This document shows positions 44,639 to 45,021 of a stretch of 64,000 nucleotides of DNA, in pieces. The stretch spans positions 508,347-572,346 of the forward strand of contig NW_004797659.1 in NCBI RefSeq assembly GCF_000002075.1, read 5' to 3'. How positions within the stretch are numbered: position 1 is the stretch's first letter; every line of letters begins with the position of its first letter. A program made the position numbers and the translations under genes. The notes beneath the pieces are model-generated. The model searched no databases. It was not told the DNA's origin and was given only the letters and a program-made list of their open reading frames with translations. Source of the DNA: Aplysia californica (Eukaryota).

Positions 44639-44753
44639 CTGGGACCCGGAACGATGGTTGCATGTAGAGACTGTGGGCGGCGTCCACGGGAACTGCCACG
44701 CCAGACACAAAACTGGCGCTGGGAGACAGGAGGAAGCACACCACAGTGGAAAC
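44639..44753 (-). CDS. PECR: PECR exon 7
   Basis: cccacag|GTT...G|gtatgt; [30 protein letters not shown]...; phase 0 to 1. Confidence 0.92.
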
Positions 44754-44769
44754 CTGTGGGAACAGTTTA

Positions 44770-44950
44770 CTTTTAGTTTTAGTAAGAGTATTACGGCATT
44801 TGCAACACGATAAGGTCATATAAGTGCTGAAGATTAGAGATGTTACGAGAGAGTAACAAACAAGAAAAAGAAGGAGGAGAGATTAGGATGATAGATATTG
44901 ATACGAAGGAAGGAGAAAACCAAACCAGAGCACCCACAAACCACCAACAA
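44770..44950 (-). mobile_element. Family B copy
   Basis: Reverse-complement consensus; flanked by AACCTGTGGG at 44751 and 44949. Confidence 0.85.
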
Positions 44951-45021
44951 CCTGTGGGGAAAAAATTAACGCACACTTAGGGAAAAAGAGTGACTATAAG
45001 CACAACAGGCAGAAACAATAT

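What the first reader, a model, noticed from the sequence alone, without database searches (positions are those of the whole stretch)
44751..44966. Insertion duplicated the PECR exon-7 acceptor: introner-like GT...AG cassette
Seen (- strand): ttttttccccacag|GTTgttggtgg-[element]-actaaaactaaaagtaaactgttcccacag|GTTtcc. The 10-mer CCCACAGGTT flanks both ends, so the apparent TSD includes the splice acceptor, and element plus TSD forms a GT...AG unit. The family consensus begins with donor-like GTGGGT and ends in a branch-point-like tail. The copy at 46927 is also preceded by a pyrimidine tract plus CAG. Inference: this is a splice-competent retroposon that could be removed as its own intron (introner-like or recursive splicing), or that creates an alternative acceptor ~200 nt upstream.
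Basis: partly seen in the sequence, partly recalled or inferred. Interest (0 to 1): 0.7.

Follow-up and report, generated by a model that had tools for sequence, protein, structure and literature searches.

The report
Retroposon duplicated a PECR splice acceptor
A common short jumping element landed just inside an exon of a sea-hare fat-metabolism gene and copied the exon's splice signal behind itself; assembled transcripts use only that second copy, so the element is removed with the old intron rather than as a new intron, likely helped by its branch-point-like tail.

Summary
A ~180-nt SINE-like retroposon (roughly 70,000 full-length copies, extrapolated) inserted 3 nt into PECR exon 7. Its target-site duplication (CCCACAGGTT) copied the acceptor. 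Contigs from three RNA-like runs (two studies) join exon 6 to the downstream copy (44753). None covers the upstream AG, whose use would add 198 nt with a stop codon.

The introner reading fails. The intron predates the insertion, this copy's head (GTTGGT) is a poor donor, and 0 of 213 other TSD-bearing copies split a predicted exon. Recursive splicing or NMD-hidden use of the upstream AG cannot be excluded.

Precedents are the dog merle SINE and an NF1 Alu insertion. The scan noted a like event at CAD in this genome.

A side result is more interesting. The family carries 1 AG on its sense strand versus 25 antisense, and lies mostly sense to host genes (71 of 83 loci with a predicted exon; control families near 50:50). 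This was not significant in random regions alone (7 of 10). Crowding upstream of acceptors (~3x) is shared with other repeats (~2.5x), so it is not family-specific. Verdict: ordinary event, mildly interesting family.

The parts
44949..44958 (-). Upstream TSD copy: original acceptor (AG ends at 44952) plus the first codon GTT of exon 7; not seen used
   Evidence: acceptor score 9.9; no RNA-contig cover or loose end here
44965..44969 (-). Branch-like TTAAT of the original acceptor, 18 nt before 44951 (inferred role)
   Evidence: motif scan
44769..44948 (-). ~180-nt SINE-like retroposon (family A, subfamily A1), 10.7% diverged from the subfamily consensus; no tRNA-like head; 3' ~55 nt shared with two other repeat families
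   Evidence: no Rfam match
44772..44782 (-). Element tail with CTAAA motifs starting 29 and 23 nt before exon 7: predicted branch point for the used acceptor
   Evidence: motif scan; no lariat data
44751..44760 (-). Downstream TSD copy: the acceptor in use (exon 7 starts at 44753)
   Evidence: junction to exon 6 in contigs of X1, X2, X3; protein P0001 reads EE|VSTV; acceptor score 5.1
44639..44753 (-). PECR exon 7 (115 nt)
47136..47243 (-). PECR exon 6 (108 nt); native donor GTCGGT at 47135
47261..47388 (-). 5'-truncated family A copy whose tail ends ~17 nt before the exon-6 acceptor; no TSD partner found
46735..46927 (-).
45637..45788 (-). 3'-truncated family A copy in intron 6
45023..45458 (.). 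Unrelated ~435-nt inverted-repeat element (MITE-like) ending ~70 nt upstream of the original acceptor; its family was used as a control
16555..16694 (+). Family A copy ending ~28 nt before a TMEM245 acceptor (exon 16723-16856)

Best explanation
A LINE-mobilised, SINE-like retroposon inserted 3 nt into PECR exon 7 and duplicated the acceptor as its target-site duplication; transcripts splice to the downstream copy, so the element simply lengthens intron 6, and its ACTAAA tail likely serves as the new branch point. Shown: the TSD, the family anatomy, the exon 6 to 44753 junction, and an unchanged protein. Inferred: target-primed reverse transcription by an unidentified LINE, which happened to hit the acceptor (no AG|G target preference in the family). 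Also inferred: the insertion was tolerated because the duplicated AG, its short pyrimidine run and the tail's CTAAA motifs 23-29 nt upstream rebuild a usable 3' splice site that defines the original 115-nt exon. Use of the upstream AG would give a 313-nt exon with a premature stop and would likely be disfavoured or removed by NMD. At family level, sense copies are nearly AG-free and so likely harmless in introns, while AG-rich antisense copies are likely purged, which would give the sense bias.
For: TSD and coordinates. Variable TSDs with mode 11-12 nt, a fixed 5' end and a repeat tail in 203 copies. Tail shared with a tRNA-headed SINE and a third family; 3 of 7 hairpin pairs show two-sided changes. 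Target profile shows only an A peak at -11/-12. Junction 47136-44753 in 3 of 3 RNA-like runs, two studies; the DNA-like run X4 carries both insertion junctions. P0001 (306 aa, named PECR of Aplysia californica, 100% identical to exon 3) reads EEVSTV; 74 of 75 aligned full-length proteins, P0001 included, have 6 residues across those columns. Upstream AG gives a stop after 22 codons. 0 of 213 exon-splitting copies. Sense consensus has 1 AG, antisense 25. Sense 71 of 83 loci with a predicted exon, one copy per locus; MITE 15 of 33, family C 8 of 15.
Against: The upstream acceptor scores higher (9.9 vs 5.1) and keeps its own branch-like motif, so why it is not seen used is unexplained. No lariat data show that the tail is the branch point. 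PECR is barely covered in the raw-read runs, so junction ratios were not measured. The sense bias is not significant in random regions alone (7 of 10 by exon; 35 of 58 by flank skew, p=0.15). It is strongest in the youngest copies (51:4 below 4% divergence), which fits insertion preference as well as selection. The partner LINE was not found.
Confidence: 0.8

Rival explanations
1. Both acceptors are used; the upstream one yields a 198-nt longer exon with a premature stop that is degraded by NMD, a leaky or regulatory unproductive isoform.
For: Upstream AG keeps its full pyrimidine tract and TTAAT and scores 9.9 vs 5.1; in-frame TAA; contigs drop rare forms (tool note).
Against: No contig of X1-X3 covers 44885-45030 or shows a loose end at 44951. 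No regulatory role was tested.
Confidence: 0.25
2. One reading: the element plus TSD is excised as its own GT-AG unit (recursive splice site at the upstream AG, or an introner-like family).
For: AG|GT is present at 44952/44951; the family head would score 10.2 as a donor behind CAG. In L115 a copy's head GTGAGT sits exactly at the donor of a predicted exon. The final mRNA would be identical, so cannot exclude recursion.
Against: The GT belongs to the TSD and GTTGTT scores 3.3; the head here scores -1.7. The intron is only 2.4 kb and has its own donor; recursive sites are typical of very long introns (recalled). 0 of 213 copies split an exon (95% upper bound 1.4%). A 3-nt microexon route would add a Val that is absent from P0001.
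Confidence: 0.07
3. The family is an intron mimic: with no Pol III head, a U1-like 5' end and a U2-like tail, its RNA is tethered to transcribing genes and inserts preferentially in sense orientation near splice sites.
For: Sense bias in families A and B (24 of 25) but not in tRNA-headed family C with the same tail. The bias is present in the youngest copies. The 5' end falls exactly on GTGGGT in 154 of 203 copies. TSDs reach a predicted donor in L002, L115 and L223.
Against: Acceptor crowding is the same for other repeats (36 near/80 far vs 12/32, Fisher p=0.70). Family C sample is small (15). Family B's bias comes from loci chosen through A copies (6:7 by skew in random regions). Selection against antisense copies explains the pattern more simply, as argued for Alu (PMC3088655, passages).
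Confidence: 0.12

Closest known systems
Canine merle SINE in PMEL (PMC7349775; passages read)
   Same: SINE at an intron-exon boundary with a 15-bp TSD that contains the original splice acceptor; normal splicing can continue with the element left in the intron.
   Different: Merle is antisense and its poly(T) acts as pyrimidine tract, with a cryptic acceptor inside the SINE. Here the element is sense, nearly AG-free, and offers a branch-like tail instead.
NF1 c.1642-1_1642insAluY with 11-bp duplication AAAAAATTCAG (PMC3219598; passages and Table 1 rows read)
   Same: Sense retroposon inserted at an acceptor whose TSD duplicates the AG.
   Different: The NF1 insertion causes exon skipping and disease; here the exon is still included through the downstream copy.
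[quoted passage not shown]
   Same: GT-like head at the exact 5' end and an AG that can come from the TSD.
   Different: Introners insert into exons and create new introns. This copy sits at an existing intron end, and 0 of 213 copies split a predicted exon.
Mollusc SINEs sharing a LINE-type tail, including LP-SINEs without a tRNA head (PMC4758252, section 10 and passages; PMC4824008, PMC11481361, passages); bipartite non-autonomous LINEs (PMC5786205, passages)
   Same: Short, TSD-flanked, tail shared among families with different heads; that paper also notes an ACTAAA hexamer before the 3' repeats of some LP-SINEs.
   Different: No sequence comparison with those families was possible; the origin of this element's head and its partner LINE are not identified.
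Orientation and splice-site bias of intronic SINEs in mammals (PMC3088655; passages read)
   Same: Human SINEs show a sense bias 20-200 bp from exons, attributed to selection against cryptic acceptors in antisense copies.
   Different: Mammalian TEs are depleted near exons, above all near acceptors. Here the sense bias appears stronger and intron-wide, and repeats in general look enriched upstream of acceptors (ab initio exons only).

Membership tests
Non-autonomous non-LTR retroposon (SINE-like) | Variable-length TSDs flanking dispersed copies | tested here: met
   130 of 203 with TSD >=8 nt vs 10 of 406 control; mode 11-12 nt
Non-autonomous non-LTR retroposon (SINE-like) | 3' simple-repeat tail and LINE-type 3' end shared with other families | tested here: met
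   (ACTAAA)n tail; 3' ~55 nt shared with families B and C; modest hairpin covariation
Non-autonomous non-LTR retroposon (SINE-like) | Identified partner LINE with the same tail | tested here: inconclusive
   None of the RNase H-bearing ORF ends printed from 30 loci carried the tail; 105 unassigned tail hits showed no obvious LINE ORF upstream; only ~2 Mb sampled
Classical tRNA-derived SINE | tRNA-derived head with Pol III boxes | tested here: not met
   ARAGORN at relaxed threshold: 0 of 30 family A copies; a tRNA-like head was called at the 5' end of family C copies; no Rfam match
LP-SINE / bipartite non-autonomous LINE | Head derived from a LINE 5' UTR | not testable with these tools
   No Repbase or Dfam library; partner LINE unknown
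Introner | Inserts into exons and is spliced out as a new intron | tested here: not met
   0 of 213 full-length TSD-bearing copies coding on both sides; at this locus intron 6 has its own donor
Introner | Many annotated introns consist wholly of the element | not testable with these tools
Introner | Splice signals at the element ends | tested here: inconclusive
   Family head GTGGGT in 154 of 203, but AG directly before it in only 5 of 213; head degraded in this copy
Recursive splice site | AG|GT with a strong regenerated donor and a detectable intermediate | tested here: inconclusive
   Donor score 3.3 vs 7.3 native; no nascent RNA available
Retroposon insertion duplicating an acceptor (merle / NF1 type) | TSD spans the intron-exon boundary | tested here: met

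The most novel reading that the evidence does not exclude
The family is a promoter-less intron-mimic retroposon. It starts at a donor motif, is almost AG-free, ends in a branch-point motif, inserts in sense into transcribed genes, and now supplies the branch point for on the order of a thousand acceptors in this genome. In my sample the tail was the source of a branch-like motif in the -45 to -15 zone for 11 of 37 near-acceptor cases, among about 500 tail-bearing copies.
Probability: 0.12. Interest if true: 0.75.

Novelty: new member of a known kind. Interest (0 to 1): 0.3.

Why it matters
The locus itself matters little: the protein is unchanged and acceptor-duplicating insertions are known from dog and human. 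It does contrast with the NF1 case, where a similar sense insertion caused skipping, and suggests that a branch-like tail can make such insertions survivable. The family-level pattern could matter more: a very abundant, AG-poor retroposon lying mostly sense in introns, sometimes replacing splice signals. If confirmed with annotation and lariat data, it would be a clear example of a mobile element shaped to be invisible to the spliceosome without creating introns, a possible step toward introners.

Tried and rejected
1. No listed holder was on record as RNA. Raw-read runs X21-X23 barely cover PECR exons and were swamped by repeats, so they give no junction ratio.
2. No empty-site joint in X4; one individual, contigs only, so this says little on polymorphism.
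3. Family-specific targeting of acceptors: rejected as specific. Sense A ratio 3.0 (36 near/80 far, 244 predicted exons) versus 2.47 for other repeats (12/32), and 8 MITE ends near acceptors. A versus its own donor side was not significant (p=0.14).
4. An AG|G target motif: none in 203 target sites.
5. Partner LINE: RNase H loci and unassigned tails gave none; the RT search listed places only and was not followed up.
6. Unusual folding of the element: z = -1.19. Rfam: nothing.
7. Pfam check of 28 predicted exons next to copies: 3 with E<0.001 (lipase, legumain prodomain, symplekin), 3 weak, 22 none; only 1 of 3 known control exons hit, weakly, so Pfam is insensitive here.
8. A candidate 24-nt exon (19992-20015) and last exon (30103) of TMEM245 next to copies were not confirmed by homologues and are not counted.
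9. The 43:11 flank-skew count in random regions shrinks to 35:23 (p=0.15) with one copy per region; I rely on the latter.
10. Literature: no paper held introner+SINE+mollusc or the five branch-point and orientation terms; listings showed no title on this family. The library lacks most subscription journals and Repbase, so absence from print is not shown. No supplements were read.

Full report
Observation. On the minus strand CCCACAGGTT occurs at 44958-44949 and 44760-44751, extending to 14 nt with two mismatches. Between them lies a ~180-nt repeat (44948 to ~44769). The gene is PECR: exon 3 is 100% identical to P0001, named peroxisomal trans-2-enoyl-CoA reductase of Aplysia californica. Exon 6 is 47243-47136 and exon 7 is 44753-44639; exon 4 was not located and probably lies in a masked stretch. 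The element inserted after the first codon (GTT) of exon 7, so the AG|GTT boundary now exists twice, 198 nt apart. The GT after the upstream AG is that codon, not the element's head. At 46927 the 'CAG' includes the element's first G.

What the element is. A genome search gave 7194 first-look candidates. Random regions held 76 full-length copies in 997,373 bases, about 70,000 genome-wide by extrapolation; these regions come from the larger scaffolds. I took 203 non-redundant copies from seven searches, leaving out four own-window loci and two duplicates. Of these, 154 start GTGGGT and 130 have a TSD of 8 nt or more (control 10 of 406), with mode 11-12 nt. The tail is (ACTAAA)n. The last ~55 nt are shared with a ~390-nt family B and a ~517-nt tRNA-headed family C; C's body resembles the Nin/Deu domain (label recalled, not tested). 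Family A has no tRNA-like head (0 of 30) and no Rfam match. This is the anatomy of a LINE-mobilised short retroposon. The partner LINE was not found. Target sites show only an A peak at -11/-12 and no AG|G motif (203 sites). The copy in question is 10.7% diverged from its subfamily consensus.

Which acceptor is used. In three RNA-like contig sets (X1, X2, X3; two studies; RNA status is the tool's guess) one contig each covers exon 7. Each continues directly into the end of exon 6 on one side and exon 8 on the other, and none covers 44885-45030. X4 behaves as DNA and carries both insertion junctions. P0001 reads EEVSTV, and 74 of 75 aligned full-length proteins, P0001 included, have six residues across those columns. 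Using the upstream AG would add 198 nt with TAA after 22 codons. A small splice model trained on 18 window exons scores the upstream acceptor 9.9 and the downstream one 5.1; donors score 3.3 (CAG|GTTGTT), -1.7 (element head) and 7.3 (native). CTAAA motifs of the tail start 29 and 23 nt before exon 7, a normal branch-point distance (established knowledge); their use is inferred. Raw reads were too sparse for ratios, contigs drop rare forms, and recursion would give the same mRNA, so those two variants remain open.

Introner test. For 213 full-length copies with a TSD I scored the reconstructed empty site for coding sequence on both sides. None scored as coding, and only 5 had AG directly before the head GT; the 95% upper bound is 1.4%. 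Copies without a detectable TSD were not tested. Three copies touch a predicted donor: TSDs span it in L002 and L223, and in L115 the head, reading GTGAGT, sits exactly at the exon end. None of the sampled TSDs was flagged as spanning an acceptor. The family can thus stand in for splice signals at existing intron ends, but I found no new intron.

Family-level pattern. Exons were predicted ab initio. Leave-one-out recovered 13 of 18 at score 18, and decoys gave 6 calls against 36 real on the same 40 regions. With one full-length copy per locus, 83 of 247 loci had a predicted exon within 1.5 kb and 71 of these were sense. Controls counted per copy were 15 of 33 (MITE) and 8 of 15 (family C); Fisher p=3e-5 and 0.009. 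Flank AT skew, which does not depend on exon prediction, agrees: 183 T-rich versus 76 A-rich loci. In random regions alone the direction is the same but not significant (7 of 10; 35 of 58). In the window, 4 of 4 copies in PECR and 2 of 2 in verified TMEM245 introns are sense. The sense consensus has 1 AG in 179 nt (6.1 expected) and the antisense 25, which offers a selective explanation. Sense tails end within 100 nt of an acceptor three times more often than further away (36 vs 80), but other repeats show 2.5-fold (12 vs 32; p=0.70), so this is not special to the family.

Comparison with the known. The merle SINE has a 15-bp TSD containing the original acceptor (PMC7349775, passages). A sense AluY with the duplicated acceptor AAAAAATTCAG causes NF1 exon skipping (PMC3219598, passages). 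Introners are defined by insertion into exons and correct splicing out, some taking the 3' site from the TSD (PMC9860276 and PMC12130899, passages). Mollusc SINEs sharing tails, some without tRNA heads, are described (PMC4758252, section 10 and passages; PMC4824008, PMC11481361 and PMC5786205, passages). A sense bias of human SINEs near exons is attributed to selection (PMC3088655, passages). Earlier scan notes report a like acceptor duplication at CAD and a shared tail in this genome. I did not check the CAD locus, and the Nimb assignment of the tail was not confirmed: the word does not occur in PMC4824008 and I made no sequence comparison.

Verdict. The feature is real, correctly described and of a known kind. 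It works like the merle or NF1 acceptor duplications, with a benign outcome; it is not an introner by the test I could run. Interest 0.3, most of it from the family's AG-poor sense strand and sense bias, which deserve a check against the full annotation.

Noticed in passing
window 47261-47388 (-) and 16555-16694 (+): Two more family copies end 17-28 nt before acceptors (PECR exon 6, a TMEM245 exon), so consecutive PECR exons 6 and 7 both have this tail at branch-point distance.
   Followed up: partly
L115 (exon 1676-1878, -), L002, L223: Mirror cases at predicted donors: the TSD spans the exon end; in L115 the element head reads GTGAGT exactly at the donor position. No RNA check.
   Followed up: partly
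random regions L031-L050, L260-L359 and search loci: Repeats in general end within 100 nt upstream of predicted acceptors about 2.5 times more often than further away, the opposite of the mammalian depletion; unexplained and based on ab initio exons.
   Followed up: partly
window 10324-12619 and 13869-16164: A 2296-nt, 99.96% identical duplication inside TMEM245 that repeats two exons; a very recent duplication or an assembly artefact.
   Followed up: no
window 19992-20015 and 30103 (+): Candidate in-frame 24-nt exon (GTKSKPKA) and candidate last exon of TMEM245, each just downstream of a family copy; not supported by homologue C-termini.
   Followed up: partly
window ~53470-54800 (-): Broken transposase-like stretch in PECR intron 1 with stops and frameshifts; motifs look mariner-like (label recalled).
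   Followed up: no
window 47281 and 47361: Poly(A) libraries X21-X23 hold over a thousand family-derived reads each with poly(A) or poly(T) loose ends at the tail and at the internal T tract: polyadenylation or internal priming of element RNA in both orientations.
   Followed up: no
window 44700: All four runs read A for G (+ strand), a synonymous third-position change in exon 7 codon 18.
   Followed up: yes
L202, L266, L269, L357, L119: A further repeat family with a related but distinct tail, plus other short families ending in the same tail.
   Followed up: no
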